Source: Escherichia coli
GTDB lineage: Bacteria > Pseudomonadota > Gammaproteobacteria > Enterobacterales > Enterobacteriaceae
Direction: 5' to 3' (one strand)
Length of the DNA: 64,000 nt
NCBI RefSeq assembly: GCF_001677475.2
Contig: NZ_CP015229.1
In this document: positions 8,155 to 64,000 of the stretch, piece by piece
Layout: each line of letters opens with the position of its first letter
Position numbering within the stretch: the first letter of the stretch is position 1
The notes under the pieces: model-generated
The model's database searches: none
Told to the model about the DNA's origin: nothing
Seen by the model: the letters and a program-made list of their open reading frames with translations, nothing else
Program-made: the position numbers and the translations under genes

Positions 8155-8196
8155 AATTTGCACCGCAAATTTGAAGAGGTTTTAACTACATGTTAT

Positions 8197-8455: not shown

Positions 8456-11359
<2,904 letters not shown>

Positions 11360-11456: not shown

Positions 11457-11576
11457 TGCCTGGCGGCCGTAGCGCGGTGGTCCCACCTGACCCCATGCCG
11501 AACTCAGAAGTGAAACGCCGTAGCGCCGATGGTAGTGTGGGGTCTCCCCATGCGAGAGTAGGGAACTGCCAGGCAT
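11457..11576 (+). rRNA. rrfH: 5S ribosomal RNA
   Basis: tgcctggcggccgtagcgcggtggtcccacctgacc...gggaactgccaggcat; 120 nt. Confidence 0.98.
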
Positions 11577-11628
11577 CAAATTAAGCAGTAAGCCGGTCAT
11601 AAAACCGGTGGTTGTAAAAGAATTCGGT

Positions 11629-11705
11629 GGAGCGGTAGTTCAGTCGGTTAGAATACCTGCCTGTCACGCAGGGGGTCGCGGGTTCGAGTCCCGTCCGTTC
11701 CGCCA
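11629..11705 (+). tRNA. aspU: tRNA-Asp (GTC), distal gene of rrnH
   Basis: ggagcggtagttcagtcggttagaatacctgcctgtcacgcagggggtcgcgggttcgagtcccgtccgttccgcca; identical to the aspV copy at 19852..19928. Confidence 0.97.
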
Positions 11706-13582: not shown

Positions 13583-13771
13583 TTTTGCTCCTGTTGCAAA
13601 ATAGATGAGATATTTTGAATTTATTTGTCATTAAACCATCAGGATGCGTGATATGTCATCCGATTTAATGTTCTCAATAATGAGCAAATTTCTGACCGGT
13701 GTAAGCACTTGCTTACATAACAATATACAATTGCTCGTTGAAAGAGTGAGCTAAAATCCCTATAACAGTAG

Positions 13772-14623
<852 letters not shown>

Positions 14624-37755: not shown

Positions 37756-38039
37756 GAAAAATAATTCAGATATCAGGGTGGTTATTATTTATTATGGGAT
37801 TGGTCACTATCATGCTTTTTTCCGGGAGTGAGTACCAGTGGATGCAGGATATGGACCCTTCAATAACAGCATTACCTCAGGGAAACGGAAATAGAGATGT
37901 AATCAGAAAATTAATTTATTCTATTTCAGTGGCTATTCAGATTGTTCTTTATTTTCTTTCAGTATCGCGTACAGGAAAGGGATTTTCAGCCCTGGGTATT
38001 TTGCTATTACTGATTACCGCATGGAGCTCTGAACAATAA
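37752..38039 (+). CDS. Small two-TM membrane protein; candidate immunity
   Basis: 95-aa ORF coupled (ATGA) to the upstream gene; hydrophobic segments WLLFIMGLVTIMLF and LGILLLLITAW. Confidence 0.4.
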   Translation: MRKIIQISGWLLFIMGLVTIMLFSGSEYQWMQDMDPSITALPQGNGNRDVIRKLIYSISVAIQIVLYFLSVSRTGKGFSALGILLLLITAWSSEQ

Positions 38040-41000: not shown

Positions 41001-41905
41001 ATTCGCTGCTGACAATGCTCAATGAGTATTACACCCAGCTCACCATCGCCGACAGTGCATTGGCAGCGAGCACATTACCGGGCCGCATTTCGGCGGCGGA
41101 TAAACTACAACTGGAAGCGGCAAAACTGCCCGCACCGCTGAAAAATATTCTGCTGGATCTCACGCAGCAGGGAACGCGAAAGATCAACGCCGGCACCGGT
41201 GAAGTGCTGAACGCGCAGATGGAGGCGGTGATCGGTGATGAGTGCCGTGACGCCATTGACGGGCGCTATCCCTTCACCGACAGCCCGCAGGAAGTCAGCG
41301 CGGACGATTTTAACCGTATCTTTGCTAGCGGCGGTGTGCTGGATGCCTTCTGGACGAAGCAACTGGCCCCGCTGGCGGATACCGCCAGCAACCCGTGGCG
41401 ATACAAACCGACCGAAGGCAACATGACTTTACAGGGGCCGGACCTGACGCCGTTTCAGGAGGCGAAACAGATCCGCAGCGTGTTTTTTAACGGCGACGGC
41501 GGGAAAAAGTTCTCCTGGGCGATGCAGGTCCGCGTCGTGGATATGGACCCGGCCATCACCGAACTGGTGATTGACATTGACGGCCAGGTACTGCGTTACG
41601 CTCACGGCCCGGTCAGGCCGCTGAAAGTGAACTGGCCGGGTCCGCGCAACGGCTCAATGGCGGAAATAACCGCCAGCCCGCGCATCCGCCAGGACACCTC
41701 GACGCTGCTGACTAATGGACCGTGGGCGCTGTTTCACCTGCTGGATGCGGGAAAAGCGCAAGAAACGGCGGTACGGGGAATACAGCAGGTGGAGTACAGC
41801 TTTGACGGGCGGCGGGTGATACTGGAAATCACCGCCGGACGGGATTTTGACCCAGTGGATCGCGGACTATTGCAACTCTTCGCCTGCCCGGAGCGAGCGC
41901 TGTGA
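38039..41905 (+). CDS. tssM: T6SS membrane complex protein TssM (IcmF)
   Basis: 1288-aa ORF; N-terminal TM helices; Walker A GSPGDGKTT. Confidence 0.92.
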   Translation: MQKFLSLLFSRRTLAVVGVVVLALLVWFIGPLVAFDTLHPLASVGSRVVTIVLLLMFLALWLVNWSMSIIGVTVLCLVIGFVSPLLAFGDVYPFAPLWLRLTLIGLILLSYTLYGLYRLWRALRLDEQLLRRFLHPRGEDVPVAGEIKADLRTVSHIVTRAIRQLKQLRVDLPGWRKVLEGKRFLYELPWFMVIGSPGDGKTTALLNTGLQFPLAEQMEQTAHILTVPGGGTLHCDWWFTNEAVLIDTAGRYARHDDGGEISATQRNAGEWQGFLGLLRKHRPGAPLNGVILTLNVADLTAQSPAERLAACAALRARLAELRETLGIRFPVYLVVTKMDLLPGFTEYFRGLTSHLRAQVWGFTLPYSRRRHASDPQSLHALCGQELANLTLRLDQGLDTRLQEEYDLKSRQRLYRFPREFAALGAPLLEAIEQIFLDSKFDATQLNNTLRGVFFTSAAQAQADAVADQTGIWQRFVRAIKGKVESPSHTLPDGNRSYFLHDLLTQFIFREAHLVEPNLQWAWRYRLLRTGGHLLVLALAFWLWQGMQGSQQGNSGYLNEIASRTVQLDGDVKAYTGKPAMQPVPVLLNQARALSAWPGLDPDSPPLAWRYGLYSVPPVMESVASLYDRLLDQLLLPPLVKRMEYVLSDAIARQDSKAAYDALHVYLLLNLDKDHEDKYNAAEIHAWVLNDLENRDSVAEFGGRAAVLEHIDALFDGSRVVHSPYDKDEGLIRMARAFLDGHTSTERIYTRALASMESEAPQEFSLVRAVGADAGTVFVRTDGAPLDRGVPGIFTREGYRELFDKRLSEFVASASADDAWVMGRENAQKKTTDIVMSQLPGQELPVTREVRRLYLAEYARRWQDFLASIHSINSAGEDGSPGLAYDLQVLRTLASPDSPLMRLSKAVVEQTTLVPPLDAQARQKQMAQRAQDRLSGNAGKAVQTAKLLQDIHPEERLEKSLVDDRFAALREVVSGRTDSGQGGGAPQLNSLLTMLNEYYTQLTIADSALAASTLPGRISAADKLQLEAAKLPAPLKNILLDLTQQGTRKINAGTGEVLNAQMEAVIGDECRDAIDGRYPFTDSPQEVSADDFNRIFASGGVLDAFWTKQLAPLADTASNPWRYKPTEGNMTLQGPDLTPFQEAKQIRSVFFNGDGGKKFSWAMQVRVVDMDPAITELVIDIDGQVLRYAHGPVRPLKVNWPGPRNGSMAEITASPRIRQDTSTLLTNGPWALFHLLDAGKAQETAVRGIQQVEYSFDGRRVILEITAGRDFDPVDRGLLQLFACPERAL

Positions 41906-42151: not shown

Positions 42152-42847
42152 ATGCAACAATATACGCGTTTTTTTATTATTTTTTTGTTATATGCCATGT
42201 CAGGAAATGTTTTTGCTGATATCAGAAAAAACACAGGAACTATTGACCCCGATTATATTAATCTCAGTGCGCAGGAATTTTTGTCATTTTATGCTCGTGG
42301 AACGTCACAGGAAAAAGAAAATGTTCTGATGTATGTCCTTGGTGTGAGTGATGCGACAGAAAGTAAAACCTGGTGTGGATATAATAAGATTAATGAAATA
42401 GAACTTTATTCATCGGTACTGACATATCTTAATCAGCAGTCGGTTAACGATATGAATATGCGAGCTTCAACTCTGATTGAACAAGCGATGGTCAGGCTGT
42501 TTCCCTGCCCGGATATGGCATCACCGGAAAAAAAATCTCCCCGGCAGTCATCTGTTTCACACCTGACCTCTGGCGCGTTCGATCTGAACGGAGATGATTT
42601 TTTCCGCTTCTGGCAGTCAGATAACAGGCAGGATAGGCTTAATGCGAAAATCTATCTTTTGGGTATAGAAGATGCCACGGAAAGAAAAACATGGTGCGAT
42701 TATAAAACGATTAAAACAGTTACACTGGATGAGATTATTTACTGGTATTTCAGAAAAAAAACGTCAGATAAACTGAATGAACGGGCTGCAAATATTATTA
42801 TTGAGGCACTAAGTAAACACTCCTGTGATAAAGGAAATAATAAATGA
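42152..42847 (+). CDS. Secreted protein with two tandem homologous domains; candidate immunity for Tae4
   Basis: 231-aa AT-rich ORF; signal peptide (FFIIFLLYAMSGNVFA); internal repeat (…VLMYVLGVSDATESKTWCGYNKI… vs …IYLLGIEDATERKTWCDYKTI…). Confidence 0.4.
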   Translation: MQQYTRFFIIFLLYAMSGNVFADIRKNTGTIDPDYINLSAQEFLSFYARGTSQEKENVLMYVLGVSDATESKTWCGYNKINEIELYSSVLTYLNQQSVNDMNMRASTLIEQAMVRLFPCPDMASPEKKSPRQSSVSHLTSGAFDLNGDDFFRFWQSDNRQDRLNAKIYLLGIEDATERKTWCDYKTIKTVTLDEIIYWYFRKKTSDKLNERAANIIIEALSKHSCDKGNNK

Positions 42848-43320
42848 AACCTTCATTTTTCACACTTAAAAAAAAACATTACTCATCAGTTCAGATTGAT
42901 GGTGATGTTTTGTACAGTGAAGTGGGTTATAACTATGAAGCACTGCAACAGCAAAATGCTGGTTATGTAAATACCTGTGCCACACGTATGAGTCTGGCGC
43001 TGATTAAATCAGGCGTCAGCTTTAACGGGCGACTGACGATCAAAAGTGGTGACTGGAAAGGGAAGAAAATAGAAACCGGTGCGAAATTACTGGCAGATCA
43101 GCTTTCCCGAGCTGATGTTTTTGGAAGACCAGTTATCTGGTGTGACTCAGAAAAATTTAAAACAGACACCAGTAATAAAAGAGGAGTGGTCTTTTTCTGG
43201 AAGATTACGGGTTACGGTGGCGGTCATATTGATCTTATTGAGCCTTCTACCACAGGTGCTATATGTCATTCACATTGCTATTTTAGCTGCAAGGAAATCT
43301 GGTTCTGGGAACTGAATTAA
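42844..43320 (+). CDS. tae4: Tae4-family T6SS amidase effector (peptidoglycan D-Glu-mDAP amidase family)
   Basis: 158-aa ORF, ATGA-coupled; Cys45 in NTCATRMSLAL and His128 in GGGHIDLIE, then CHSHCYF, as recalled for Tae4; no signal peptide. Confidence 0.6.
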   Translation: MKPSFFTLKKKHYSSVQIDGDVLYSEVGYNYEALQQQNAGYVNTCATRMSLALIKSGVSFNGRLTIKSGDWKGKKIETGAKLLADQLSRADVFGRPVIWCDSEKFKTDTSNKRGVVFFWKITGYGGGHIDLIEPSTTGAICHSHCYFSCKEIWFWELN

Positions 43321-45451: not shown

Positions 45452-47665
45452 ATGAGTTTTGTATCTACGGGTAATAAACCAGTTGGAAACGGTAGACCCG
45501 TCATCACCACACCACCAATAGCTCGCGAAAGTGGCGGTATGAGCGCAAGTTCAGCCGCAACCGATGTAGCTGATGCAGCCGAACAGATGGCAGAACAGGC
45601 AGTTGCAGATCTATTTGGTGCGCTTCCAGAACCGTCAGGACTGGTTAAAGCTGCAGTAGCTGCTGCGCAGGCCGCCGCCGCCGCGGCAGGGATCTCGGAT
45701 ATGGCTGGTGCAGCTCAGGATGCGGCGGCATCGCTTGCTGCCGCTGGTTCGGGGGCGCATAACGTCACAGTAAGTGGTAGTGCGGTGCCGGCGCAGATGC
45801 TGCTGTTCGCAGGTATGAATGGTTCGGAAGGGCTTGGGAATCTGTTTTCCTATACAGTACAGCTTAAAACGCCTGACACCCTGAACCTCGGATATGTCTC
45901 CCCTGCTGCCAATCTGCCGCTCAAACCGATGGTGGGCAAAGACCTGTGCGTCAATATTGAACTGGAGGGCGGCGGCAAACGGCATATCAGCGGGCTGGTG
46001 ACGGCTGCGAGGGTAGTCGGTCACGAGGGGCGCTCGGTCACGTATGAATTGCGCATTGAACCGTGGTTGAAGCTGCTGACCCACACCAGCGACTACAAAG
46101 CCTTCCAGAACAAAACCGTGGTGGATATTCTCGATGAAGTCCTGGCTGAATATTCCTTTCCGGTGGAAAAGCGGCTGGTGGAAAATTATCCGCCCCGCGC
46201 CTGGCAGGTGCAGTATGGTGAAACCGATTTTGATTTCATCCAGCGCCTGATGCAGGAATGGGGTATCTACTGGTGGTTTGAGCACAGCGAGAACAGCCAC
46301 ACGCTGGTACTGGCTGATGCCATCAATGGTCATAAAACGTGCCCGGACTCGCCGCTGGTAGAGTGGCACCAGGAAGGACTGAAGCTCGATAAGGAATTTA
46401 TCCACACCATTACGGCCAGTGAGAGGCTGCGTACTGGAAAGTGGGTGCTGGACGATTTTGATTTTATGAAGCCGCGTTCACTGCTGAAAAGTACCGTGGC
46501 TAATCCGCGTGATACCGGTCATGCTGAATATGAGCATTACGAATGGCCTGGTGATTACTTCACTATGGGGGAAGGCGAGATGCTGACGCGCATTCGTATG
46601 GAAGCGCAGCGCAGCCCTGGCAGCCGGGTTGGAGGGGCGGGGAATATCCGCACCCTCATGACTGGTTACACCTTTACGTTGATGAATCATCCGACGGCGG
46701 AGGTCAACCAGGAATATCTGCTGGTGCAGACCACACTGTTTTTACGGGACAATGCGCAGTACAGCGGCCAGGACCAGCATTTTACCTATGTCACCACGTT
46801 CGAACTGCACCCTACCAGTGAAGTCTACCGCCCACAGCGAACCCTGAGCAAACCTCATACCAAAGGCCCGCAGAGCGCCATCGTCACCGGTCCGGCGGGG
46901 CAGGAAATCTGGACGGATAAATATGGCCGGGTGAAGGTGCAGTTTGGCTGGGATCGTTATGGTAACAATGACGAAAACAGCTCCTGCTGGGTCCGTGTTA
47001 GCTATCCGTGGGCGGGAAAAGGATTCGGCATGATCCAGATCCCGCGTATTGGCCAGGAAGTGCTGGTGGATTTCAAAAATGGTGACCCGGATTTACCCAT
47101 CATCGTGGGGCGTACCTATAACCAGGACACGATGCCGCCGTGGGGATTGCCTGGCATGGCGTCGCAGAGCGGGATATTCAGCCATTCGTTACAGGGGGGG
47201 CCGACCAACGGAAACATGCTGCGCTTTGATGACAAAACGGGGGCGGAAGAGGTGAAGTTCCATGCGGAAAAAGACCTCAATACCACAGTAAAAAACAATG
47301 AAACCCACACGGTCATGGTCGATCGCACAAAAACCATTGTCAAAAATGAAACCATCAGCGTGGGAGAAGACCGTAATGCCACCATCACAAACAATGATGG
47401 GCTTTCCGTCAAACTAGCTCAAACCATCAATGTCGGGACGACATATCGTCTGGACGTTGGCGAGCAATTTACCCTTCGCTGCGGCAATGCAGCGCTTGTA
47501 TTACACAAGGATGGCTCGATTGAGTTTTGCGGAAAACAACTTTTACTGCACGCCAGCGATGTGATGCAACTCATTGGCAGTGGTATTGATATGAATCCGG
47601 ATGGCGGAAAAGCCATTACTGCGAATGATATTGCCCCAGTACCCACTCCGGATGCTTCTGAATAA
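45452..47665 (+). CDS. vgrG: T6SS spike protein VgrG (TssI) with ~100-aa Ala-rich N-terminal extension
   Basis: 737-aa ORF; RBS aaggag before ATG 45452; canonical VgrG region begins near residue 105 ([34 protein letters not shown]). Confidence 0.88.
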
Positions 47666-48137: not shown

Positions 48138-52623
<4,486 letters not shown>

Positions 52624-52628
52624 TGCCG

Positions 52629-52669
52629 AAAAAAGCCGGGAACAATATTAAATCTTCCCGGCTTTTTAT
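52629..52669. terminator. Bidirectional Rho-independent terminator between rhs-immunity operon and symE-like gene
   Basis: aaaaagccgggaa…ttcccggcttttt inverted repeat with flanking A/T runs. Confidence 0.75.
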
Positions 52670-52672
52670 TAT

Positions 52673-52966
52673 TTAATTATCGTTCAGCATACTAAACATC
52701 CCGTCACGCATCCCCTTAACCGCCTGTTTGACCTGGTAAAGTTCCCTGCGCAGTTCCTGTACTTCGTTGTTATCCGCTAGCAGGATCAGGCAACCTTCCG
52801 AGATCTTCACGGTAACGCCCGTGCCGATCTCAAATCCCGCTTCTCTCAGCCATTTGGCGCTGATTTTGATCACCGGCGTGTCGCTGCGGTTGGGCAGATA
52901 GCCCACGGTACAGTGGCGCTGTGTTTTGGAAATGGTGACTTCTGGCGTAATATCGTGTTCAGCCAT
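52673..52966 (-). CDS. SymE-family (AbrB-fold) type I toxin-like protein
   Basis: 97-aa ORF; RHCTVGY…ISAKWLREAGFEIGTGVTVKISEGCLILLA parallels recalled SymE (RHVTVGY…[31 protein letters not shown]). Confidence 0.6.
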   Translation of the reverse strand: MAEHDITPEVTISKTQRHCTVGYLPNRSDTPVIKISAKWLREAGFEIGTGVTVKISEGCLILLADNNEVQELRRELYQVKQAVKGMRDGMFSMLNDN

Positions 52967-53166
52967 GATTAACTACCTTGATTAGTTGCTTGTGGTGAGC
53001 GGTGATTAAGGGGGGGGCAGCCCCAGGGAAAGATCACATAACGTTGTTTTTTGCACTAAATAATTCGCACTATATATTCAATAATTGAGTAATTCCTTAT
53101 TACTCAAAACTGTTTTTCACAGCTTATATATAATCAAATACTCCTTACATAAATAAGGAGAACAAA

Positions 53167-53610
53167 ATGGTACTTAAAAAATGATGGAGCATATTTCTAT
53201 TATCCCTGATTACAGACAAGCCTAGAAAGTGGAACATAATTTGTCAGATATTCTACTGTTGACTATTTGTGCCGTCATTTTCGGGGCTGAAGGATAGGAA
53301 GATATAGAGGATTTTGGAGAAACACATCTCGATTTTTTGAAGCAATATGGTCATTTTAAAAATGGCATCCCCGTTCACGATTCCATTGCCAGAGTTGGAT
53401 CCTGTATCAGTCCTGCAAAATTTTAACTGGATGCGTGACTGCCATTCCTCAAATGATAAAGACATTATCGCAATTGATGGAAAAACGCTCCGGCACTCTT
53501 ATGATAAGAGTCGCCGCAAGGGAGCGATTCATGTCATTAGTGCGTTCTCAACTATGCACAGTCTGAGCCTTGGGCAGATTAAGACAGATGAGAAATCCAA
53601 TGAGATTACA
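53167..53610 (+). pseudogene. yafF: Truncated, mutated ISAs1-family (H-repeat) transposase remnant, yafF-like
   Basis: Matches recalled YhhI/H-rpt N-terminus (…MEHISIIPDYRQA…ICAVI…[13 protein letters not shown]…NWMRDCHSS…[33 protein letters not shown]…[10 protein letters not shown]) but with TGG->TAG stops, frameshifts and truncation after ~150 codons. Confidence 0.8.
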
Positions 53611-53674
53611 GTGACCGCGCGTCAGTCCTTGCGGAGGGCGTCTACCCAGCCCCTTCCCTAAAAACAACGCCCAC

Positions 53675-54445
53675 TCACAGCAACCTGAACCCATCCGCGT
53701 CCTGCCATGCCGGGAATTTTTCACGATATTCTCGTAATGCCACCATCGAAAGTTCTGCATCAATGCGTGTGGCCTGGTGTGGTTCGGCGCTAGCGAGAGT
53801 TTCGCCTTGCGGATTAATCACCCGACTGTCGCCGCGATAGTGGCAGCCATTGCCATCGCTACCCACGCGATTACATCCAGCCACATACGCCTGATTTTCA
53901 ATAGCGCGAGCCGTCAGCAAAGCCTGCCAGTGCAGAGAGCGCGGGGCAGGCCAGTTGGCGACGTAGATTGCCAGGTCATAATCGTTGAAATTGCGCGACC
54001 ACACCGGAAAACGTAAGTCGTAGCACACCAGCGGCAAAATACGCCAGCCGCGCCATTCCACAATCACTCGCGCATTGCCCGCTTTATAATGCAGATGCTC
54101 ATCTGCCATGCGGAACAGATGACGCTTATCATAAAAATGTACCGTGCCGCCCGGCTCAACCAGCAAAAAGCGGTTAACCGAACCAGACTCCGTTTGTAAT
54201 GCAACACTGCCTGCAATCAGCGCATTGCACTGCTGCGCTTTAGCTGTCATCCAGTTCACTACGTCATCTTGTGCTAGCGACGAAGCTGCCGCTTCCATGG
54301 CAAAGCCGCTGGTAAACATCTCCGGTAGAACGATCACATCGCGTCCGGTAATACCTTCCAGTTGACGATCAAAATGGCGCAGGTTGGCAGGACCATCCAT
54401 CCACACCAGTGGTTGCTGTAAAAGCGTAATCTTCAAACCAGGCAC
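53675..54445 (-). CDS. yafV: Omega-amidase / nitrilase-family hydrolase YafV
   Basis: Nitrilase-superfamily motifs (…LPEMF…, CYDLRFP); GTG start at 54445 with aaggag RBS. Confidence 0.88.
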   Translation of the reverse strand: MPGLKITLLQQPLVWMDGPANLRHFDRQLEGITGRDVIVLPEMFTSGFAMEAAASSLAQDDVVNWMTAKAQQCNALIAGSVALQTESGSVNRFLLVEPGGTVHFYDKRHLFRMADEHLHYKAGNARVIVEWRGWRILPLVCYDLRFPVWSRNFNDYDLAIYVANWPAPRSLHWQALLTARAIENQAYVAGCNRVGSDGNGCHYRGDSRVINPQGETLASAEPHQATRIDAELSMVALREYREKFPAWQDADGFRLL

Positions 54446-54598
54446 GGTGTACAACTCCTTTATGCGAAGGGTTTTATAACTCTAACACCTTATCAGGCAG
54501 TTGCCTTAGCGCAGAATAAATTGATAACAAATGCTGATATTGGAAATATCTGATTTGCAAATCATCGTGTTATCGCCAGGCTTTAGGAGGTTAATAAC

Positions 54599-55072
54599 AT
54601 GGGCAGGATAAGCTCGGGAGGAATGATGTTTAAGGCAATAACGACAGTCGCCGCACTGGTCATCGCCACCAGTGCAATGGCACAGGATGATTTAACCATT
54701 AGCAGCCTTGCAAAGGGCGAAACCACCAAATCTGCATTTAATCAGATGGTGCAAGGGCATAAGCTGCCAGCCTGGGTGATGAAAGGCGGTACTTATACCC
54801 CTGCACAAACCGTGACATTGGGAGATGAGACGTATCAGGTGATGAGCGCGTGCAAACCGCATGACTGTGGCTCGCAACGTATCGCTGTGATGTGGTCCGA
54901 GAAATCTAATCAGATGACGGGGCTGTTCTCGACTATTGATGAGAAAACGTCGCAAGAGAAACTCACCTGGCTGAATGTGAACGATGCGCTTTCGATTGAT
55001 GGTAAAACGGTGCTGTTCGCGGCGTTGACCGGCAGCCTGGAAAACCATCCGGATGGCTTTAATTTTAAATAA
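54599..55072 (+). CDS. ivy: Inhibitor of vertebrate lysozyme
   Basis: 157-aa ORF with signal peptide and CKPHDC loop. Confidence 0.93.
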   Translation: MGRISSGGMMFKAITTVAALVIATSAMAQDDLTISSLAKGETTKSAFNQMVQGHKLPAWVMKGGTYTPAQTVTLGDETYQVMSACKPHDCGSQRIAVMWSEKSNQMTGLFSTIDEKTSQEKLTWLNVNDALSIDGKTVLFAALTGSLENHPDGFNFK

Positions 55073-55085
55073 TTAGCGGATAAAG

Positions 55086-55112
55086 AAACGGAGCCTTTCG
55101 GCTCCGTTATTC
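55086..55112. terminator. Bidirectional terminator between ivy and fadE
   Basis: aacggagcc-tttc-ggctccgtt hairpin. Confidence 0.7.
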
Positions 55113-55114
55113 AA

Positions 55115-57559
55115 TTACGCGGCTTCAACTTTCCGCACTTTCTCCGGCAACTTTACCGGCTTCGTCGCCAGCTCTTCCGGATCAAAGTCATCAACGTTAA
55201 TACTGCGCAGACGGCTTTCTTCAGCTTTCACCAGCATAGCGGCTTCATCTTTATCAATCAGCCCCTTCGCCAGCGCGTTGTGCGCCAGTTCATCCAGACG
55301 GGTAAACGGCAGGTTTTTACCCAGCTCTTTACAGATCCGCTGATGAATCGGGTCGGCGGCAATCACATCCACTAGCGCCTCTTCCAGTAAACCAACTGGG
55401 TTATGCTCGCTCGGCGTCAGGTACTGACCGCGACCAATGCGGGAACGGGTGGCGTTCGGCACTTGTAAAATCTTCGCCACCTTATGATCCAGCTTGTCAG
55501 ACGGTGCCAGATAATGACGTCCGGTCGGGAAGATCACCACATTCAGCAGCCCGGCAACCACGCGGTTCGGGAAGTTTTGCAGTAAATCGTCCATCGCCTG
55601 TTCTGCCTGATACAGCGCATCCTGTACGCCCCAGTGCACCAGCGGCAGGTCGGCTTCATTACGGCCTTCGTCGTCATAACGCTTCAGAACGGCAGAGGCG
55701 AGGTAAAGCTGGCTTAAAATATCCCCCAGACGTGCCGAGATACGCTCGCGACGTTTCAGGCTGCCGCCCAGCACAGCCATCGAGACATCAGAAAGCAGGG
55801 CGAGGTTGGCGCTCAGGCGGTTCAGGTGTTGATAGTAGCGTTTAGTGGCATCGCCGGTTGGCGTGCTGCTGGTTAAACCGCGCGTCAGGCCCAGCCAGAA
55901 GCTGCGAACTTTGTTGCTACCGACGTGACCGATATGTTTAAACAGGAGTTTATCGAACGCGTTGACGTCATTGTTCTTCGCCGCTTCCATCTCTTCCAGC
56001 ACGTACGGATGGCAACGAATCGCTCCTTGTCCGAAGATCATCATGCTGCGGGTCAGAATGTTAGCCCCTTCAACGGTGATGGCAATCGGTGCGCCCTGGT
56101 AAGCACGCGCCAGGAAGTTGCTCTGCCCGAGCATAATGCCTTTGCCACCAGTGATATCCATCGCATCAATAATCGACTGCTGCCCACGGTGGGTACAGTG
56201 ATACTTAACGATAGCCGACAGCACGGCAGGTTTCTCACCGAGCATAATGCCGTAGGTAATCAGCGACGCCGCAGCATCCATTACGTACGCATTACCGGCA
56301 ATACGCGCGAGCGGCTCTTCAATCCCTTCCATCTTACCAATAGAAATTTTGAACTGACGGCGAATGTGCGCATACGCACCCGTTGCCAGCGCTACCGATT
56401 TCACGCCGCCGGTTGAGTTGGAAGGCAGGGTGATGCCGCGGCCTACCGAGAGGCACTCCACCAGCATCCGCCAGCCTTGCCCGGCCATTTTTGGTCCGCC
56501 GATAATGTAATCGATCGGTACGAAGACATCTTTACCGCGCGTCGGTCCGTTCTGGAACGGTACGTTCAGCGGGAAATGGCGACGACCAATTTCCACGCCC
56601 GGCGTGGTGGTCGGGATCAGCGCACAGGTAATACCTAAATCTTCTGCGCCACCCAGCAGTTTTTCCGGGTCGGAGAGTTTAAACGCCAGCCCAAGCACGG
56701 TCGCAATCGGTGCCAGCGTAATGTAGCGTTTGTTCCAGGTCAGACGCATCCCCAGCACCTGCTGGCCCTGCCATTCCCCCATGCAGACAATTCCGGTATC
56801 CGGGATCGCGCCCGCATCGGAACCCGCTTCCGGGCTGGTCAGTGCAAAGCAAGGGATTTCCTGACCACGCGCCAGACGCGGCAGATAGTGATTTTTCTGC
56901 TCGTCAGTGCCGTAATGTTGCAGCAGCTCGCCCGGACCTAATGAGTTCGGCACGCCGACGGTAATCGCCAGGATCCCGCTCACGCCGGAGAGTTTTTGCA
57001 GCACGCGAGACTGGGCATAAGCCGAGAACTCCAGCCCGCCGTACTCTTTTTTGATGATCATCGCGAAGAAACGATGCTCTTTAAGGTACGCCCACAACTC
57101 CGGCGGCAAATCAGCCAGCTCATGAGTAATCTGGAAATCATTCGCCATCCGGCAGGCTTCTTCTACCGGGCCGTCGAGAAACGCTTGCTCTTCTGCGGTC
57201 AGGCGTGGCTGCGGATAGTTATGCAGCTTTTTCCAGTCCGGCTTGCCCTGGAACAAATCGCCTTCCCACCAGGTGGTGCCTGCGTCGATTGCTTCTTTCT
57301 CAGTGCGCGACATCGGCGGCATTACCTTACGGAAACCGCGAAATACCGGCGCGGAAATCATCGACTTACGCATAGGCGCAAAGTTAAATGGCACGAGGAT
57401 AATGGCCAGAGGCACCAGTACCCACGCCGACCACAGACCAGCAACGCCGAGGGCGGCTGTCCAGGCGAGCAAAATCAGACTGCTGATAAATAAGCTCACG
57501 CGGTGATAGAACAACGCGCCGAGCAGGACAACCGTAGCGAGAATACTCAAAATCATCAT
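55115..57559 (-). CDS. fadE: Acyl-CoA dehydrogenase FadE
   Basis: Start [20 protein letters not shown] at 57559 matches recalled FadE; track ORF extends to 57637. Confidence 0.92.
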
Positions 57560-57798
57560 AACGAAAAGCCCCTTACTTGTAGGAGGTCTGACCACTTGTG
57601 ATGATATGGTTGTAGTGGATGTAAAAACATTTAGCAATGTGTTTACAATATAATTACAACAAAGCTCACATTGTTGCTGTTTTTATCCGCACTTCAGGTC
57701 AAAAAGTCCTGGTCATAGCACCTGCCCGTACTTCTCGCTTTTGGCGGTATCCGGTACACTGCATTTTGTCTATTACATTTATGCTGAAGGATATCCTC

Positions 57799-58377
57799 AT
57801 GTACCAGGATCTTATTCGTAACGAACTGAACGAAGCGGCGGAAACGCTGGCTAACTTTTTAAAAGATGACGCCAATATTCACGCCATTCAGCGCGCGGCG
57901 GTCCTGTTAGCAGACAGCTTTAAAGCTGGTGGCAAAGTGCTTTCCTGCGGCAACGGCGGCTCCCATTGCGACGCTATGCACTTTGCCGAAGAGTTGACCG
58001 GTCGCTACCGTGAAAACCGTCCGGGCTACCCGGCGATTGCCATTTCTGACGTTAGTCATATTTCCTGCGTCGGTAACGATTTTGGTTTCAATGATATTTT
58101 CTCCCGTTACGTTGAAGCGGTAGGTCGCGAAGGCGATGTACTGCTGGGGATCTCCACCTCCGGTAACTCTGCAAACGTGATCAAAGCGATCGCGGCGGCG
58201 CGTGAGAAGGGGATGAAAGTGATCACCCTGACAGGTAAAGACGGCGGCAAAATGGCTGGCACGGCGGATATTGAAATTCGCGTTCCGCACTTTGGTTATG
58301 CCGACCGCATTCAGGAGATCCACATTAAAGTGATCCATATCCTGATCCAGTTAATTGAAAAAGAGATGGTTAAGTAA
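57799..58377 (+). CDS. gmhA: D-sedoheptulose 7-phosphate isomerase (GmhA/LpcA)
   Basis: 192-aa SIS-domain protein from [21 protein letters not shown]…; longer track ORF is an upstream in-frame extension. Confidence 0.93.
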
Positions 58378-58498
58378 GGGCTTTTCTCCCTCTCCCTTTC
58401 AGGGAGAGGGCCGGGGTGAGGGTAACAGCCTGCACCTTTTTACTTTTTAATCAATCTTCGCCGGGGGCCATGCGCTCCCGCTGTTGTGGAGGTTACCC

Positions 58499-59266
58499 AT
58501 GTGCGAATTGCTCGGGATGAGCGCCAACGTCCCTACCGATATCTGCTTTAGTTTCACCGGGCTTGTACAGCGTGGTGGTGGAACCGGGCCACATAAAGAT
58601 GGCTGGGGCATCACCTTTTACGAAGGTAAAGGCTGTCGCACATTTAAAGATCCACAACCCAGCTTTAATTCCCCCATCGCCAAACTTGTCCAGGACTACC
58701 CGATAAAATCCTGTTCGGTGGTGGCTCATATTCGCCAGGCGAATCGGGGCGAGGTGGCGCTGGAAAATACTCACCCATTTACCCGCGAGTTATGGGGGCG
58801 TAACTGGACTTATGCCCATAACGGACAACTGACGGGCTACAAATCACTGGAAACCGGCAACTTCCGCCCGGTCGGTGAAACCGACAGCGAAAAAGCCTTC
58901 TGCTGGCTCCTGCATAAATTAACGCAGCGTTACCCGCGTACGCCGGGCAATATGGCGGCAGTGTTTAAATATATCGCCTCACTGGCGGATGAACTGCGGC
59001 AGAAGGGCGTTTTCAACATGCTGCTTTCTGACGGGCGCTATGTAATGGCGTATTGCTCGACTAATTTACACTGGATCACCCGCCGCGCGCCGTTTGGCGT
59101 GGCAACGTTGCTGGATCAGGATGTGGAAATCGACTTCAGCTCGCAGACCACACCGAATGATGTGGTCACGGTGATTGCGACACAGCCGCTGACGGGCAAT
59201 GAAACCTGGCAAAAGATTATGCCAGGCGAATGGCGCTTATTTTGCCTCGGGGAGCGTGTAGTTTGA
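58499..59266 (+). CDS. yafJ: Class II glutamine amidotransferase-like protein YafJ
   Basis: N-terminal [11 protein letters not shown] (Ntn-type Cys2). Confidence 0.88.
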
Positions 59267-59977
59267 TGCCAGCTGTGGCTGCACAACTTCGTGGCTTAAC
59301 GGCTTGCTGACCACGTAACGACCATTGACCACAGAAACGGTCGGTGGCTTACGGGTTTGCTCAAAGTAGTCGTAACCTGGCTTCAGCTGCTCCCAGAAGT
59401 CCTTAAAGTTGGAATATTTATGGCGCTTCATATTGGCGTCGGTCATGCGGAACGGGTAAATACTCACTTGCACGCTCGGCTGACCAAACACCAGCGCACC
59501 AGTAACGAACTGGAAGATCTCATCAATACCCTGATTGGTCATCGCGTAGCAGCCGATGGAAACACAATCGCCGTGGATCATCAGATATTTCCCTTCATAA
59601 CCATGCGCACGGTCATAAGCATTGGGGAATCCAATATTAATCGCTTTGTAGTAACGGCTGTCTGGTTTTAACTGATTACGCTGGACGCTATAAAACCCTT
59701 CCGGGCTTTTGAAATCGCCCTGACGCTGTTTTGGCCCTAAGCCGCCGGAATATTTACAGATTTTATAGCTGTCGAGCAGTTGATATTGCTCGCCCATTTT
59801 GACGTAGAGATCGAGCGTACGTTCTTCCTTGAAGATCTGGATGTAGACAGGGGATCCCATCAACTGCTGCTTATACTCTTTGCTCACTGGCGTGGTCGAG
59901 CTACTGCTGCCCAGCAAACCGGCAAACGAAACGCACGGGATCAACAACATCGCAAGAATTAATGCGATTTTACGCAT
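59237..59977 (-). CDS. yafK: L,D-transpeptidase-like periplasmic protein YafK
   Basis: 246-aa ORF with signal peptide; YkuD-like motif ([12 protein letters not shown]). Confidence 0.88.
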
Positions 59978-60132
59978 ACTGCTTATTCCTTGATAAAACG
60001 GTTACACACGCCAGGACGGCAAAATGGATCCCAAATCGGAATAGTCTGGATTTGGAAGGCTCACATTATCACCAAAAGAGTTTTACGCAAGCCTGTCGGC
60101 GCAGGGTTTACAAATTTCATCGGAAGCGGGCT

Positions 60133-60411
60133 TTACCCAAATAGCGCCGCGTGAGTTCCAGTTCTCTCAAATCGTAAAAGTTTATCGGTAAGTTTGTAAA
60201 TCAGGATCCAGTCCGGCTCGACATGAGCATCGCGATAACCTTTCCATGAACCTTGCAGCGGGTGGTCTTTATAAACAGCTGGAAGCGGTAAAGTATTATT
60301 GATAAGAAGCGTCATAAGATATTTCAATTTATTCATATCCTTATGACGCTTTTGTGCAAGTTTTACATCCTTTGAAAATTGTCCCGAGTATTCAATATCC
60401 CTTTGAATCAT
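60133..60411 (-). CDS. yafQ: mRNA interferase toxin YafQ (RelE family)
   Basis: 92-aa ORF MIQRDIEYSGQFSKDVKLAQKRHKDMNKLKYLM…. Confidence 0.93.
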   Translation of the reverse strand: MIQRDIEYSGQFSKDVKLAQKRHKDMNKLKYLMTLLINNTLPLPAVYKDHPLQGSWKGYRDAHVEPDWILIYKLTDKLLRFERTGTHAALFG

Positions 60412-60413
60412 AT

Positions 60414-60674
60414 TTAAATTCCTAATTTATCAAATAAATCATCGGCGTCTTTGGCCTTATGAACATCAACGCCAGCTTCGCTGTTTTTAATTGATTGAAT
60501 GGTTAATTGATTAGGCTCGCGTAAATCAAACGGCAATGCCTTTTCACGCGCGACTTTTGTGAGGGTTATGCGAACCAGGTCAGAGATGGTCAGCCCCATC
60601 CCGGCCAGTACGTCCGCCGCCTGATTCTTCAGATCTTCATCGATTCGGGCGCGAACAAACGCGTTAGCAGCCAT
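60414..60674 (-). CDS. dinJ: Antitoxin DinJ
   Basis: 86-aa ORF MAANAFVRARIDEDLKNQAADVLAGMGLTISDLVRITLTKVAREKALPFDL…; 2 nt upstream of yafQ. Confidence 0.93.
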   Translation of the reverse strand: MAANAFVRARIDEDLKNQAADVLAGMGLTISDLVRITLTKVAREKALPFDLREPNQLTIQSIKNSEAGVDVHKAKDADDLFDKLGI

Positions 60675-60690
60675 TGGGGTATCTCCTGTG

Positions 60691-60706
60691 CTGTATATTT
60701 ATTCAG
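60691..60706. promoter_or_regulatory. LexA (SOS) box in dinJ-yafQ promoter
   Basis: ctgtatatttattcag = CTG-N10-CAG palindrome just upstream of dinJ start. Confidence 0.7.
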
Positions 60707-60883
60707 CTTGAATTGTAGCTCAAATGAGCAACAGCGACAATCCATGAGTAATTTAATAAACGGATGTTTTTACATAATTAACTGAAATATATTTATTAAT
60801 TTTATAATAATGGTTTATTAAGTTTGTTCAGGTACGGGCCGGGATACACTGCAACATCAATGCATGACCAGCCATTATTGAGA

Positions 60884-61633
60884 ATGTCTTTGCCGTCGAT
60901 TCCCTCTTTTGTGTTGTCGGGATTATTGTTGCTTTGCTTGCCGTTTTCTTCATTTGCCAGCGCCACCACATCACATATCTCTTTCAGCTACGCCGCCCGC
61001 CAGCGGATGCAAAACCGTGCGCGTTTATTAAAACAGTACCAAACCCATCTGAAAAAACAGGCCAGCTATATTGTGGAAGGCAATGCCGAAAGCAGAAAGG
61101 CGCTGCGCCAGCACAACCGCGAACAGATAAAACAGCATCCAGAATGGTTTCCTGCGCCGCTCAAGGCGAGTGACAGACGCTGGCAGGCGCTGGCGGAGAA
61201 CAACCATTTCTTAAGCAGCGACCATCTACACAACATCACCGAAGTGGCGATTCACCGCCTGGAGCAGCAGCTTGGTAAGCCTTACGTCTGGGGCGGTACG
61301 CGGCCCGATCAAGGCTTCGACTGTAGCGGGTTGGTTTTTTATGCCTACAACAAGATCCTCGAGGCGAAGCTCCCGCGTACGGCCAATGAGATGTATCACT
61401 ACCATCGGGCAACGATTGTGGCGAATAACGACCTGCGCCGGGGAGATTTGCTGTTTTTCCATATTCACAGCCGTGAGATTGCCGATCATATGGGCGTGTA
61501 TCTGGGAGACGGGCAATTTATCGAATCGCCACGCACCGGGGAAACCATACGGGTAAGCCGGTTAGCCGAACCTTTCTGGCAGGATCATTTTTTGGGCGCG
61601 CGACGGATTTTGACGGAAGAGACGATTTTGTAG
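60884..61633 (+). CDS. yafL: NlpC/P60-family lipoprotein peptidase YafL
   Basis: MSLPSIPSFVLSGLLLLCLPF… start; NlpC/P60 catalytic region (…DCSGLVFYAY…, …HMGVYLG…). Confidence 0.85.
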   Translation: MSLPSIPSFVLSGLLLLCLPFSSFASATTSHISFSYAARQRMQNRARLLKQYQTHLKKQASYIVEGNAESRKALRQHNREQIKQHPEWFPAPLKASDRRWQALAENNHFLSSDHLHNITEVAIHRLEQQLGKPYVWGGTRPDQGFDCSGLVFYAYNKILEAKLPRTANEMYHYHRATIVANNDLRRGDLLFFHIHSREIADHMGVYLGDGQFIESPRTGETIRVSRLAEPFWQDHFLGARRILTEETIL

Positions 61634-61635
61634 AA

Positions 61636-61712
61636 CGGATAAGGCGTTCACGCCGCATCCGGCGGTTATGCGCTGGTGCCTGATGCGACGCTGGCGCGTC
61701 TTATCAGGCCTA
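61636..61712. repeat. REP (repetitive extragenic palindrome) element(s)
   Basis: gccgcatccggcgg… and gcctgatgcgacgctggcgcgtcttatcaggcctac palindromic units. Confidence 0.7.
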
Positions 61713-61809
61713 CGAGTCTGAGAATTTTTTGCGAGCAGCTTTCCCGATGTAACACAACCTAATTGTCGACTTTTCCTTTTTCTCTTACCGTTGAGAAATA
61801 GGAGTCGCT

Positions 61810-62307
61810 ATGTCTGAATATCGTCGTTATTACATCAAGGGGGGAACATGGTTTTTCACGGTAAATTTACTGAATCGTCGAAGCCAGCTTTTGACCACCC
61901 AGTACCAGACGCTCCGTAACGCCATTGTTAAAGTTAAGCGAGCCAGACCTTTTGAAATTAACGCCTGGGTAGTTTTGCCGGAGCATATGCACTGTATCTG
62001 GACATTACCCGAAAGCGATGATGATTTTTCCTCTCGCTGGCGGGAGATTAAAAAGCAATTTACCCATGCTTGTGGATTGAAAAATATCTGGCAACCGCGT
62101 TTTTGGGAGCACGCCATCCGCAATACGAAAGATTATCGCCATCATATTGATTATATTTATATAAATCCAGTAAAGCATGGTTGGGTAAAGCAGGTGAGTG
62201 ATTGGCCATTCTCAACGTTCCATCGCGATGTCGCGCAAGGGTTATATCCCATCGATTGGGCGGGAGACGTAACGGATTTTAGTGCCGGGGAGCGTATCAT
62301 TTTATAA
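61810..62307 (+). CDS. rayT: REP-associated tyrosine transposase RayT (YafM)
   Basis: 165-aa IS200/IS605-like TnpA (HuH motif PEHMHCIW), flanked by REP elements. Confidence 0.85.
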   Translation: MSEYRRYYIKGGTWFFTVNLLNRRSQLLTTQYQTLRNAIVKVKRARPFEINAWVVLPEHMHCIWTLPESDDDFSSRWREIKKQFTHACGLKNIWQPRFWEHAIRNTKDYRHHIDYIYINPVKHGWVKQVSDWPFSTFHRDVAQGLYPIDWAGDVTDFSAGERIIL

Positions 62308-62309
62308 TT

Positions 62310-62515
<206 letters not shown>

Positions 62516-62518
62516 TGC

Positions 62519-64000
62519 CTACATCAACGCCCCCATAATCTTCAACTCCAGCTCATCCGGCACTTCGTTATACGACAGCACATGCAGCCCCGGCGCAAAC
62601 AATCTCGCATAGCGCTCCAGTAAAGGGCGTAACTGCGGCGGCACCAACAACACCGGGTCTTTCCCTGCAGCTTTCATCTGCTCCTTCACCTGCGGCATCG
62701 TGCTCTGGAACTGGTTGAGCATATTCGGGTCCACCGGCACGCTGTCGAGCATCACTTTCCCGCCCTGTTGCGCCTGACTCACCACATTGGTCAGCAGATT
62801 TTCCAGCTCATTATTCAGCGTATATACCGTCAGCTCCTGCTTGCGAACGAACGGATGGGTAATGCTACGCCGCAGCGCCAGGCGCACATCGGCTGCCAGC
62901 AGAATATGATCTTTGGTCACTGTACTACTGGCAACCAGCACGGTGGCGATGGTGACGATATCGCGCAGGGAAACGCCCTCGGTCAGCAGCGCACGGTACA
63001 CTTTCAGCAACTGGCTGTAATTCAGCGCCGCGCTTAAGTCTTCCGCCAGGCGCGGCGCCATCGACGACAAACGGTTATGTAACTGCGTAATATCGTCATA
63101 GTTAAACAAATCAGGGATATAGCTGCGCACAATCTTGTTCACATGGGTGGCAATCACGCTGGCGCTGTCGATCACCTGATACCCCATATTCAGCGCCTTC
63201 GCTTTCTGCGCAGGCTGGATCCAGGTCACCGGCATCCCATACGCCGGGTCATTCCCCAGCACGCCGTCTATCTCGCCGTAAGTTTCGCTGGAGGGCAGCG
63301 CCATCAGTTTATCCGCCGGAATATCCGCTTCATCAGCCTTTATGCCGTTGATGAAAATAGCGTACTGGCTGGGCTTGAGGCGGAAGTTTTCCCGAATGCG
63401 GATCTCCGGCAGCAGCACGCCGTTACCGTCGGATATCACCTGCCGCACGCCGCGAATCCGCTGGGTGAGCGGGTTACCTTGGGCTTTATCGACCAGCGCC
63501 ACCAGCTTGTAGCCGAGGCTTAAGCTGATGGGCTCGATCAGCGGAATGGTTTCCCAACTGACCTGTTGCTCGCTGGTTTCGGTGATGGTTCGGGTCAGCG
63601 TTTCGAGGCTTTTCTCCTCCGCCTCCGCCGCCTGCGGGCGTTTGCTCATCCGCCAGCCGGTAAAGCCAAGCAGGGCGCTGAACAGCAAAAATGGCAGATG
63701 CGGCATCCCCGGCACCACCGCCAGCACAAACATGATCCCGGTGGCGGTGTAGAGCACCGACGGGCTTGCCAGCAGCTGGTGGCGCACGTCATGGGCGATA
63801 TCGCCGTTGTCGCTGACGCGGGTGACGATAATTGCCGCCGCGGTGGAGAGCAGCAGGGACGGGATCTGCGCCACCAGGCCGTCGCCGATGGTCATCAGCA
63901 CATATTGCTGGAAGGCGGCGTCGGCGCTCAGGTTGTATTTGAAGATGCCGATACAGACGCCGCCGATCAGGTTGATCGCCAGAATCATCATCCCGGCGAT
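62519..64000 (-). CDS. lfhA: FlhA-family export-gate protein of the Flag-2 locus, C-terminal part; N-terminus beyond window end
   Basis: Open frame on minus strand from stop at 62519 to window edge; FlhA-like sequence (…LSLGYKLVALVD…, …VRGVRQVISDGNGVLLPEIRIRENF…). Confidence 0.8.
   Translation of the reverse strand: MAGMMILAINLIGGVCIGIFKYNLSADAAFQQYVLMTIGDGLVAQIPSLLLSTAAAIIVTRVSDNGDIAHDVRHQLLASPSVLYTATGIMFVLAVVPGMPHLPFLLFSALLGFTGWRMSKRPQAAEAEEKSLETLTRTITETSEQQVSWETIPLIEPISLSLGYKLVALVDKAQGNPLTQRIRGVRQVISDGNGVLLPEIRIRENFRLKPSQYAIFINGIKADEADIPADKLMALPSSETYGEIDGVLGNDPAYGMPVTWIQPAQKAKALNMGYQVIDSASVIATHVNKIVRSYIPDLFNYDDITQLHNRLSSMAPRLAEDLSAALNYSQLLKVYRALLTEGVSLRDIVTIATVLVASSTVTKDHILLAADVRLALRRSITHPFVRKQELTVYTLNNELENLLTNVVSQAQQGGKVMLDSVPVDPNMLNQFQSTMPQVKEQMKAAGKDPVLLVPPQLRPLLERYARLFAPGLHVLSYNEVPDELELKIMGALM

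What the first reader, a model, noticed from the sequence alone, without database searches (positions are those of the whole stretch)
62519..64000. FlhA-family lfhA reading frame stays open for at least 490 codons to the window edge
In K-12 the Flag-2 lateral flagellar locus is a deletion remnant with a fragmentary lfhA. Here the FlhA-like frame is uninterrupted to the window end, so this strain may keep a fuller Flag-2 cluster.
Basis: partly seen in the sequence, partly recalled or inferred. Interest (0 to 1): 0.25.

Follow-up and report, generated by a model that had tools for sequence, protein, structure and literature searches.

The report
Partial lfhA of intact Flag-2 cluster
The window ends inside lfhA, the export-gate gene of E. 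coli's optional second (lateral, Flag-2) flagellar system; the open frame alone cannot separate intact from K-12-type deleted loci, but a contig identical to the window runs on into a complete gene and cluster, which is a known and common polymorphism.

Summary
On the minus strand, 62519-64000 is one open frame of 493 sense codons plus a TAG stop. It encodes residues 205-697 of the 697-aa FlhA paralogue LfhA, next to rayT and a REP array, as at the K-12 locus.

The inference does not follow. The K-12 remnant keeps 567 lfhA codons and is open over this same stretch. The lfhA-lafU deletion junction lies about 220 nt beyond the window end. The window part of lfhA is in 5383 of 5426 complete E. 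coli genomes, 4087 carry the junction, and 1290 (24%) carry the lfhA 5' end plus lfhB.

The hedged conclusion is nevertheless right. Draft contig NJSK01000030.1 is 100% identical to window 38153-64000. It continues 612 nt to a full-length lfhA start, then lfhB, lfiRQPNM, lafK and lfiEF. Five window proteins match exactly one 5,498,453-bp contig (four seen as ANO87372-87404). That contig codes full-length LfhA as ANO87405, directly after RayT, and LafU as ANO87446, which fits an uninterrupted 42-gene cluster.

This is a known gene in a known presence/absence polymorphism, so interest is low. One side observation: the identical deletion junction sits on several flanking haplotypes.

The parts
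62519..64000 (-). 3' 71% of lfhA: codons 205-697 plus the TAG stop at 62519-62521. By analogy with FlhA (inferred from family knowledge), this covers the end of the cytoplasmic loop, TM5-8, the linker and the whole C-terminal cytoplasmic domain. The 5' 612 nt (codons 1-204) lie beyond the window edge.
   Evidence: Translation is open. TIGR01398 FlhA model positions 192-677 match at E 3e-125. 7amy residues 204-695 align. The segment is identical to residues 205-697 of the 697-aa LfhA of L005/L028.
62308..62518 (.). REP (BIME-like) array of two 95-nt tandem units plus a partial third copy. It fills the spacer between the convergent genes rayT and lfhA.
   Evidence: the repeat finder family D2 has 2 copies of 95 nt at 99% identity. 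Spacer length among relatives with the same RayT is 21, 116 or 211 nt. Draft contigs break here (L012, L014).
61810..62307 (+). rayT (yafM), the REP-associated tyrosine transposase. It is the conserved left-hand neighbour of lfhA and marks the locus as the K-12 yafL-rayT-lfhA position.
   Evidence: NCBIfam NF047646 matches at E 1.2e-52. The gene order matches annotated K-12 and AR_0077. The exact protein is ANO87404.1.

Best explanation
The segment is the distal 493 codons of lfhA, the FlhA paralogue of the Flag-2 (lateral-type, secondary) flagellar locus of E. coli. The locus sits at its usual chromosomal site between rayT and dinB.

Shown: in the genome lineage the window comes from, the gene is full length at 697 aa. 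Its start codon lies 612 nt beyond the window end. It is the last gene of a minus-strand lfiMNPQR-lfhBA unit, and the lfhB stop overlaps the lfhA start by 17 nt. The rest of the about 38-kb, 42-gene cluster (lafK, lfiEFGHIJ, glycosyltransferase genes, lfgNMA, lfgB-L, lafW, lafZ, lafA-F, lafSTU) is present up to dinB.

Inferred from what is established for FlhA/SctV proteins: LfhA would form the nonameric export gate of the lateral flagellar type III export apparatus. Its N-terminal eight-helix membrane domain would use the ion-motive force. Its C-terminal cytoplasmic ring, wholly inside the window, would dock chaperone-substrate complexes for ordered export of hook, junction, cap and flagellin (LafA) subunits. 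By analogy with Vibrio parahaemolyticus, expression would depend on the sigma-54 activator LafK and the lateral sigma factor LafS.

Whether the system is expressed or makes flagella in this strain is not shown.
For: Family and region. The full-length relative scores 773.5 bits against the TIGR01398 cut-off of 772.1. The window part scores 554 bits to 7amy and 288 bits to the 692-aa FlhA 36hw.

Locus: the order yafL-rayT-REP-lfhA matches annotated K-12 and AR_0077.

Direct extension: contig NJSK01000030.1 of GCA_002516285.1 is 100% identical to the window over 38153-62295 (L015) and over 50884-64000 with 0 mismatches in 13,117 nt, including the two-unit REP array (L028). It continues through the K-12 junction position to a 697-aa lfhA, then lfhB, lfiR, lfiQ, lfiP, lfiN, lfiM, lafK, lfiE and lfiF.

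Finished genome: the exact window proteins TssH, TssM, VgrG and RayT are ANO87372.1, ANO87383.1, ANO87390.1 and ANO87404.1. The window's PAAR-Rhs is also on record exactly. All five lie on one 5,498,453-bp contig. The 697-aa LfhA whose last 493 residues equal the window translation is ANO87405.1 on that same contig. LfhB is 87406, LfiF 87414, LfiI 87417, the glycosyltransferase 87420, LfgE 87428, LafS 87444 and LafU 87446. These numbers match a count of 42 consecutive protein-coding genes, as seen in the draft walk.

The window spans a complete rrn operon, so it comes from a finished assembly. Each exact look-up whose size histogram I read (LfhA, Rhs, LfgD, LafZ, YafL) found exactly one contig over 1 Mb.
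Against: The window itself stops 220 nt short of the position that separates intact from deleted loci, so nothing in the window proves the state.

I could not read the DNA of the 5,498,453-bp contig, so identity of source and record rests on exact protein matches and accession order.

A close relative (L011: 2 mismatches in 5,040 nt, same REP array) has the K-12-type deletion. The deleted state is three times more common in E. coli.

The LfgK sequence of the draft relatives is not on the 5.5-Mb contig, so at least one Flag-2 protein differs there.

Function of Flag-2 in E. coli is doubtful in the strains studied. In 042 lfgC carries a frameshift and a swarming assay was negative. In W and Crooks swarming occurred, but the assay is not specific to Flag-2 (PMC3032704, PMC6993521).
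Confidence: 0.92

Rival explanations
1. The source genome carries the K-12-type lfhA-lafU deletion. The frame seen in the window would then be the 3' part of the promoterless fhiA/lfhA pseudogene, which would end about 220 nt beyond the window in the lafU remnant.
For: The base rate favours it: 4087 of 5426 complete genomes hold the junction. The K-12 remnant is open over this whole stretch. Relative L011, with 2 mismatches in the lfhA segment and an identical REP array, has the deletion.
Against: The window has T at 62616 (Glu666), whereas L011 has G (Ala). The Glu666 allele is on record only as the full-length 697-aa protein, in 41 contigs. The contig that is 100% identical to window 38153-64000 is intact. 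In the finished genome with five exact window proteins, the protein after RayT is the full-length LfhA.
Confidence: 0.03
2. lfhA is full length, but the Flag-2 system of the source is inactivated elsewhere by a frameshift, an internal stop or an IS. Such lesions exist in E. coli 042 (lfgC) and AR_0077 (lfgD). The locus would then be a decaying cluster rather than a working second flagellum.
For: Such lesions are common. About 22% of enterobacterial flag-2 loci lack at least one conserved gene (PMC6993521). AR_0077 has an internal stop in lfgD. The LfgK of the draft relatives is not found exactly on the 5.5-Mb contig. REP and boxC-like repeats have been inserted in four lfg spacers of this lineage.
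Against: All 42 genes are called at full length in the draft of the same lineage. Accession numbers ANO87405 to ANO87446 leave no gap for a pseudogene without a protein id. dN/dS of lfhA is 0.02-0.04, though this is equally low for remnants and so is weak evidence.
Confidence: 0.12
3. The frame is the primary (Flag-1) flhA gene rather than lfhA.
For: RefSeq annotation names it simply 'flagellar biosynthesis protein FlhA'.
Against: The position next to yafL-rayT is far from the flhBAE operon context. The neighbours in relatives are the lfhB, lfiR-M and lafK set and lafA, annotated 'lateral flagellin LafA'. The window protein scores 554 bits to the 702-aa FlhA 7amy but only 288 bits to the 692-aa FlhA 36hw. 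Each genome has one place for this DNA, at the rayT locus.
Confidence: 0.01

Closest known systems
lfhA of the Flag-2 locus of E. coli 042 and other Flag-2-positive E. coli (Ren et al. 2005, as summarised in PMC6993521 and PMC3032704)
   Same: Same gene, same chromosomal site and same cluster order: lfhAB-lfiRQPNM-lafK-lfiEFGHIJ, then the lfg and laf genes, ending at lafU next to dinB. The protein is 98-99% identical to common E. coli LfhA clusters.
   Different: The DNA allele is unusual. No RefSeq complete E. coli genome exceeds 96.2% identity in this 1.48 kb, although housekeeping DNA of the window reaches 98.9%. This lineage lacks the two-gene toxin-antitoxin insert between lafW and lafZ that AR_0077 carries (reported for 042 in PMC3032704). 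No frameshift was seen in lfgC of the draft relative.
fhiA / lfhA pseudogene of E. coli K-12 (with mbhA / lafU remnant)
   Same: Homologous over the whole window segment at 94.1% DNA identity. Same stop, same rayT neighbour, and the frame is open over the same 493 codons.
   Different: K-12 lacks codons 1-130 and everything up to nt 155 of lafU. The junction lies 1704 nt from the stop with a 3-nt GAT overlap. The contig identical to the window runs through that point into intact sequence.
FlhA of Vibrio parahaemolyticus, solved as a nonamer (PDB 7amy; the organism is recalled from memory, not given by the tool)
   Same: It is the best solved relative: E 1.6e-165 with alignment over the full window segment. 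This fits the lateral-type ancestry of Flag-2.
   Different: Different genus. The structure says nothing about expression or function in E. coli.
Primary flagellar FlhA of Salmonella/E. coli (PDB 36hw, 3a5i and others) and injectisome SctV (7alw)
   Same: Same FHIPEP/FlhA-SctV export-gate family and domain order.
   Different: Much lower similarity (288 bits and 149 bits against 554 bits), a different locus and different operon partners.

Membership tests
FlhA / FHIPEP export-gate family (NCBIfam TIGR01398, Pfam PF00771) | Whole-protein score at or above the curated equivalog cut-off | tested here: met
   The window fragment scores 419.1 bits, below the 772.1 cut-off, because only 71% of the protein lies in the window. 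The full-length protein of the identical contig and allele (L005/L028) scores 773.5 bits against 772.1.
FlhA / FHIPEP export-gate family (NCBIfam TIGR01398, Pfam PF00771) | Colinear alignment through the C-terminal cytoplasmic domain | tested here: met
   Model positions 192-677 of 678 are matched. The alignment to solved FlhA 7amy covers residues 204-695, and to FlhA_C structures covers query residues 142-488.
Flag-2 lfhA (secondary, lateral-type flagellar locus of Enterobacterales) | Chromosomal position: left end of the locus next to rayT (yafM), with dinB beyond lafU | tested here: met
   The left flank yafL-rayT-REP lies in the window and matches annotated K-12 and AR_0077. The right flank lafU-dinB was seen only in relatives of the same lineage.
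Flag-2 lfhA (secondary, lateral-type flagellar locus of Enterobacterales) | Operon partners lfhB-lfiRQPNM upstream and divergent lafK-lfiEFGHIJ | tested here: met
   These are not in the window. They are present in the contig 100% identical to window 38153-64000 and in the finished genome as ANO87406-87417.
Flag-2 lfhA (secondary, lateral-type flagellar locus of Enterobacterales) | Production of functional lateral flagella | not testable with these tools
   This needs expression and motility assays. The literature doubts function in the E. coli strains studied (PMC3032704, PMC6993521).
K-12-type lfhA (fhiA) deletion remnant | Fusion of lfhA codon 131 to lafU nt 156 at a GAT microhomology, 1704 nt from the lfhA stop | tested here: not met
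   The position (window-equivalent 64220-64222) lies outside the window, so it could not be tested on the window itself. In the identical contig L028 the sequence continues as intact lfhA. In the finished genome the protein after RayT is the 697-aa form.

The most novel reading that the evidence does not exclude
The lfhA-lafU deletion is usually read as one ancestral event. It has the same junction (a 3-nt GAT overlap inside a 17-of-28-nt imperfect repeat) in all four deletion carriers I aligned, and a junction-centred probe matches 4087 complete genomes. Yet it sits on at least three different flanking haplotypes. Each of these matches a different intact Flag-2 haplotype to within 12-42 nt on the lfhA side and 33 nt on the lafU side. 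One carrier (L011) is identical to the window's intact allele right up to the junction. The remnants also show dN/dS as low as intact genes. This could mean the deletion recurs at a hotspot, or that it is repeatedly moved between backgrounds by recombination with crossovers very close to the junction. In either case the Flag-2 presence/absence state would turn over much faster than a single old loss implies.
Probability: 0.2. Interest if true: 0.35.

Novelty: already known. Interest (0 to 1): 0.1.

Why it matters
It matters little beyond annotation. Flag-2 presence or absence is a documented polymorphism: about a quarter of E. coli strains are positive, and the rest carry the lfhA/lafU scar. 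The practical lesson is methodological. The 3' 1.7 kb of lfhA is retained and open in deleted strains, so only sequence beyond codon 131 (or lfhB) tells the two states apart. This strain belongs to the minority with a complete, apparently uninterrupted 42-gene cluster. It could therefore serve as a candidate for testing whether Flag-2 is ever functional in E. coli.

Tried and rejected
1. I looked for the source in the 5,426 RefSeq complete E. coli genomes. The best match is 96.2% in lfhA and 98.9% in housekeeping DNA, so neither the source nor a near relative is in that set.

2. I tested whether the window's exact allele ever occurs as a remnant, using exact look-ups of hypothetical remnant products: 543 aa and 579 aa built from the intact allele. 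None is on record. The control, the 543-aa product of the real deleted relative L011, is also not on record. Remnants are often annotated as pseudogenes without a protein, so this test is uninformative and I did not use it.

3. I asked whether dN/dS separates intact genes from remnants. It does not: values are 0.02-0.04 in all pairs, K-12 included.

4. Allele matching alone is insufficient. lfhA alleles are mosaics, and L011 (deleted) equals the intact allele from offset 200 to the junction.

5. The synonymous SNP at 58197 that separates L005 from the window could not be used for a protein look-up.

6. Ren et al. 2005 (PMC545627) is not held. Its content is cited only through PMC6993521 and PMC3032704.

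7. I did not scan genome contigs or metagenome contigs. GTDB holds one representative per species, so it was unlikely to hold this lineage.

Full report
OBSERVATION

On the minus strand, window 62519-64000 translates without interruption into 493 residues followed by a TAG stop at 62519-62521. The ORF list gives 62519..63991, 490 aa. That count starts at the first in-frame Met, which is internal; the frame is open to the last base of the window. Because the gene is on the minus strand, the window edge removes the 5' end of the gene.

The product matches positions 192-677 of the 678-position NCBIfam FlhA equivalog model (E 3e-125). It also aligns over its full length to solved FlhA proteins. 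The best is the 702-aa chain 7amy at 554 bits. The 692-aa FlhA 36hw scores 288 bits and an injectisome SctV 149 bits.

WHAT IT IS

Upstream lie yafL (an NlpC/P60 protein), rayT at 61810-62307 (NF047646, E 1.2e-52) and a REP array of two 95-nt units at 62308-62518. This is the gene order of the K-12 locus yafL-rayT-lfhA-lafU-dinB and of the Flag-2-positive strain AR_0077. In AR_0077 the same gene is 697 aa long. It is followed by lfhB, lfiRQPNM, lafK, lfiEFGHIJ, the lfg genes, lafA ('lateral flagellin LafA') and lafU next to dinB. The frame is thus lfhA, the FlhA paralogue of the Flag-2 locus, and the window holds its residues 205-697.

- In K-12 the remnant keeps lfhA residues 131-697, and the frame stays open for 603 codons back from the stop.
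- The deletion junction is 1704 nt from the first base of the stop codon, at window-equivalent 64220-64222. It has a 3-nt GAT overlap and joins to nt 156 of lafU.
- The window ends 220 nt before that point, so K-12 and every other deleted strain show the same open frame over 62519-64000.
- In 5,426 complete RefSeq E. coli genomes, the window part of lfhA is present in 5,383. A 300-nt probe centred on the junction is matched in one piece by 4,087. The lfhA 5' end plus lfhB is present in 1,290, or 24%.
- De Maayer et al. report the same picture: 24 of 100 E. coli strains have flag-2, and all 76 others carry the truncated copies (PMC6993521).
- The window observation therefore carries essentially no information about the state of the locus, and the prior favours deletion three to one.

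WHAT THE STATE REALLY IS

No complete RefSeq genome is close. The best identity is 96.2% in lfhA and 98.9% in the mltD-dnaQ region.

An exact look-up of the window's RayT returned relatives of both kinds:
- L005 is intact, with 0 mismatches in the 1,482 nt of lfhA and 2 in the 10.5 kb upstream.
- L010 is intact, with 3 mismatches.
- L011 carries the K-12-type deletion, with only 2 mismatches and the same REP array.

Allele similarity alone was therefore not decisive. lfhA alleles are mosaics, and L011 equals the intact allele from offset 200 up to the junction.

Two further lines settle it. First, the window's exact 1380-aa PAAR-Rhs protein occurs on only about a dozen contigs. One of these, NJSK01000030.1 of GCA_002516285.1, is 100% identical to window 38153-62295. 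A second look-up on the same contig showed 0 mismatches over window 50884-64000, including the two-unit REP array. That contig continues for 612 nt to the lfhA start codon. The resulting 697-aa product is identical to that of L005. It then carries lfhB (overlapping lfhA by 17 nt), lfiR, lfiQ, lfiP, lfiN and lfiM, and the divergent lafK, lfiE and lfiF.

Second, five window proteins are on record exactly on one 5,498,453-bp contig. Four of them, TssH, TssM, VgrG and RayT, are ANO87372.1, 87383.1, 87390.1 and 87404.1; the fifth is the Rhs protein. The full-length LfhA is ANO87405.1 on that same contig.

Walking the cluster in a draft of the same lineage (100% identical to L013 in the 11.5-kb overlap) gave 42 full-length genes from lfhA to lafU, then dinB. 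Their exact products carry ANO87406 (LfhB), 87414 (LfiF), 87417 (LfiI), 87420 (glycosyltransferase), 87428 (LfgE), 87444 (LafS) and 87446 (LafU). This is the numbering expected if all 42 genes are annotated as proteins, with no pseudogene gap.

The window also spans a complete rrn operon, so it must come from a finished assembly. Each exact look-up whose contig-size histogram I read found exactly one contig over 1 Mb. I conclude with about 0.92 confidence that the source has a full-length lfhA and a complete Flag-2 cluster.

HOW IT MOST LIKELY WORKS

The following is inferred from the FlhA/SctV family, not shown here. LfhA would assemble as a nonamer at the base of the lateral flagellar type III export apparatus. 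The membrane domain (eight helices, of which TM1-4 are encoded beyond the window) would couple export to the ion-motive force. The cytoplasmic ring, encoded wholly inside the window, would bind chaperone-substrate complexes and order the export of rod, hook, junction, cap and LafA flagellin.

Gene order and the 17-nt lfhB/lfhA overlap indicate co-transcription and translational coupling with lfiMNPQR-lfhB. A sigma-54 activator (lafK) is encoded divergently, and a FliA-type sigma factor (lafS) lies near the right end. This parallels the Vibrio parahaemolyticus lateral hierarchy (recalled from Stewart and McCarter 2003). Whether the system is expressed is unknown. In 042 lfgC carries a frameshift and a swarming assay was negative. 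In W and Crooks swarming occurred, but the assay is not specific to Flag-2 (PMC3032704, PMC6993521).

COMPARISON AND NOVELTY

This is a member of a known gene family, at a known locus, in a known presence/absence polymorphism, so nothing about lfhA here is new. Two minor particulars apply:
- The DNA allele is unusual for E. coli (at most 96.2% identity to any complete RefSeq genome) although the protein is 98-99% identical.
- The differences are almost all synonymous, with dN/dS 0.02-0.04 and dS up to 0.26.

SIDE OBSERVATIONS

The identical deletion junction occurs on several haplotypes that each resemble a different intact allele very close to the junction. K-12's remnant shows no relaxation of dN/dS. 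This hints at recurrent deletion or very active recombination at the locus, and I did not resolve it.

Other relatives show a different deletion that joins yafL directly to lfgK (L031, L032). The Flag-2 spacers of this lineage carry REP and boxC-like insertions.

VERDICT

The feature is ordinary and already known, so interest is low.

Noticed in passing
window 62308-62518 (and 61630-61687): A REP/BIME array of two 95-nt tandem units lies between convergent rayT and lfhA. Relatives with an identical RayT have spacers of 21, 116 or 211 nt, so the unit number varies among near-identical strains. Short-read contigs break here.
   Followed up: partly
window 61810-64000 versus L001, L002, L005-L011: Identity to relatives changes abruptly at the rayT/REP boundary. 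L007, for example, is 99.5% identical upstream and 94.3% inside lfhA. Within lfhA the mismatches come in blocks, so alleles are recombination mosaics. dS between E. coli alleles reaches 0.26 with dN/dS 0.02-0.04.
   Followed up: partly
L011:5262, L001 about 7703 (window-equivalent 64220-64222, outside the window): The K-12-type lfhA-lafU junction (GAT overlap; 17 of 28 flanking positions alike by my own hand count of the printed sequences) is identical in four carriers. Its flanks match three different intact haplotypes within 12-42 nt on the left and 33 nt on the right. A junction-centred probe matches 4087 of 5426 genomes.
   Followed up: partly
L031:10001-12233, L032, L034: Some assemblies carry a different Flag-2 deletion. 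In L031 and L032, yafL is followed directly by lfgK-lfgL-lafW-lafZ, so rayT, lfhA and everything up to lfgJ are missing. The L034 contig ends at yafL. All three have a Transposase_mut (IS256-family) gene upstream near the Rhs immunity gene.
   Followed up: no
L022:10715-10857, 12798-12975, 13762-13967, 16048-16255: In the window's lineage, four lfg spacers are 120-130 nt longer than in L023. The lfgD-E and lfgF-G spacers hold REP elements. The lfgG-H and lfgJ-K spacers hold GC-rich palindromic 'CCCTCTCCC...GGGAGAGGG' (boxC-like) repeats, which also occur at window 58380-58437.
   Followed up: partly
window about 20000-52700: A complete type VI secretion cluster is present. It includes TssH at 26563-29196, TssM at 38039-41905, a Rap1a-like/Tae4 immunity-effector pair at 42152-43320, VgrG at 45452-47665, a DcrB-like gene, a PAAR-Rhs at 48153-52295 with a 111-aa downstream ORF, and then a SymE-like toxin gene. 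The exact Rhs is on only about a dozen contigs, and the listed named members of its 90% cluster are almost all E. marmotae proteins.
   Followed up: no
window 6468-11702: A complete rrn operon is present: 16S, two tRNAs, 23S, 5S and one tRNA. This shows that the window comes from a finished assembly.
   Followed up: yes
protein P0001, P0004, P0095, P0102 (relatives, not in the window): Public LfhA variants include in-frame internal deletions (659 aa, 573 aa) and a 680-aa form with an internal duplication on the remnant background. The gene is thus decaying in several independent ways in E. coli.
   Followed up: no
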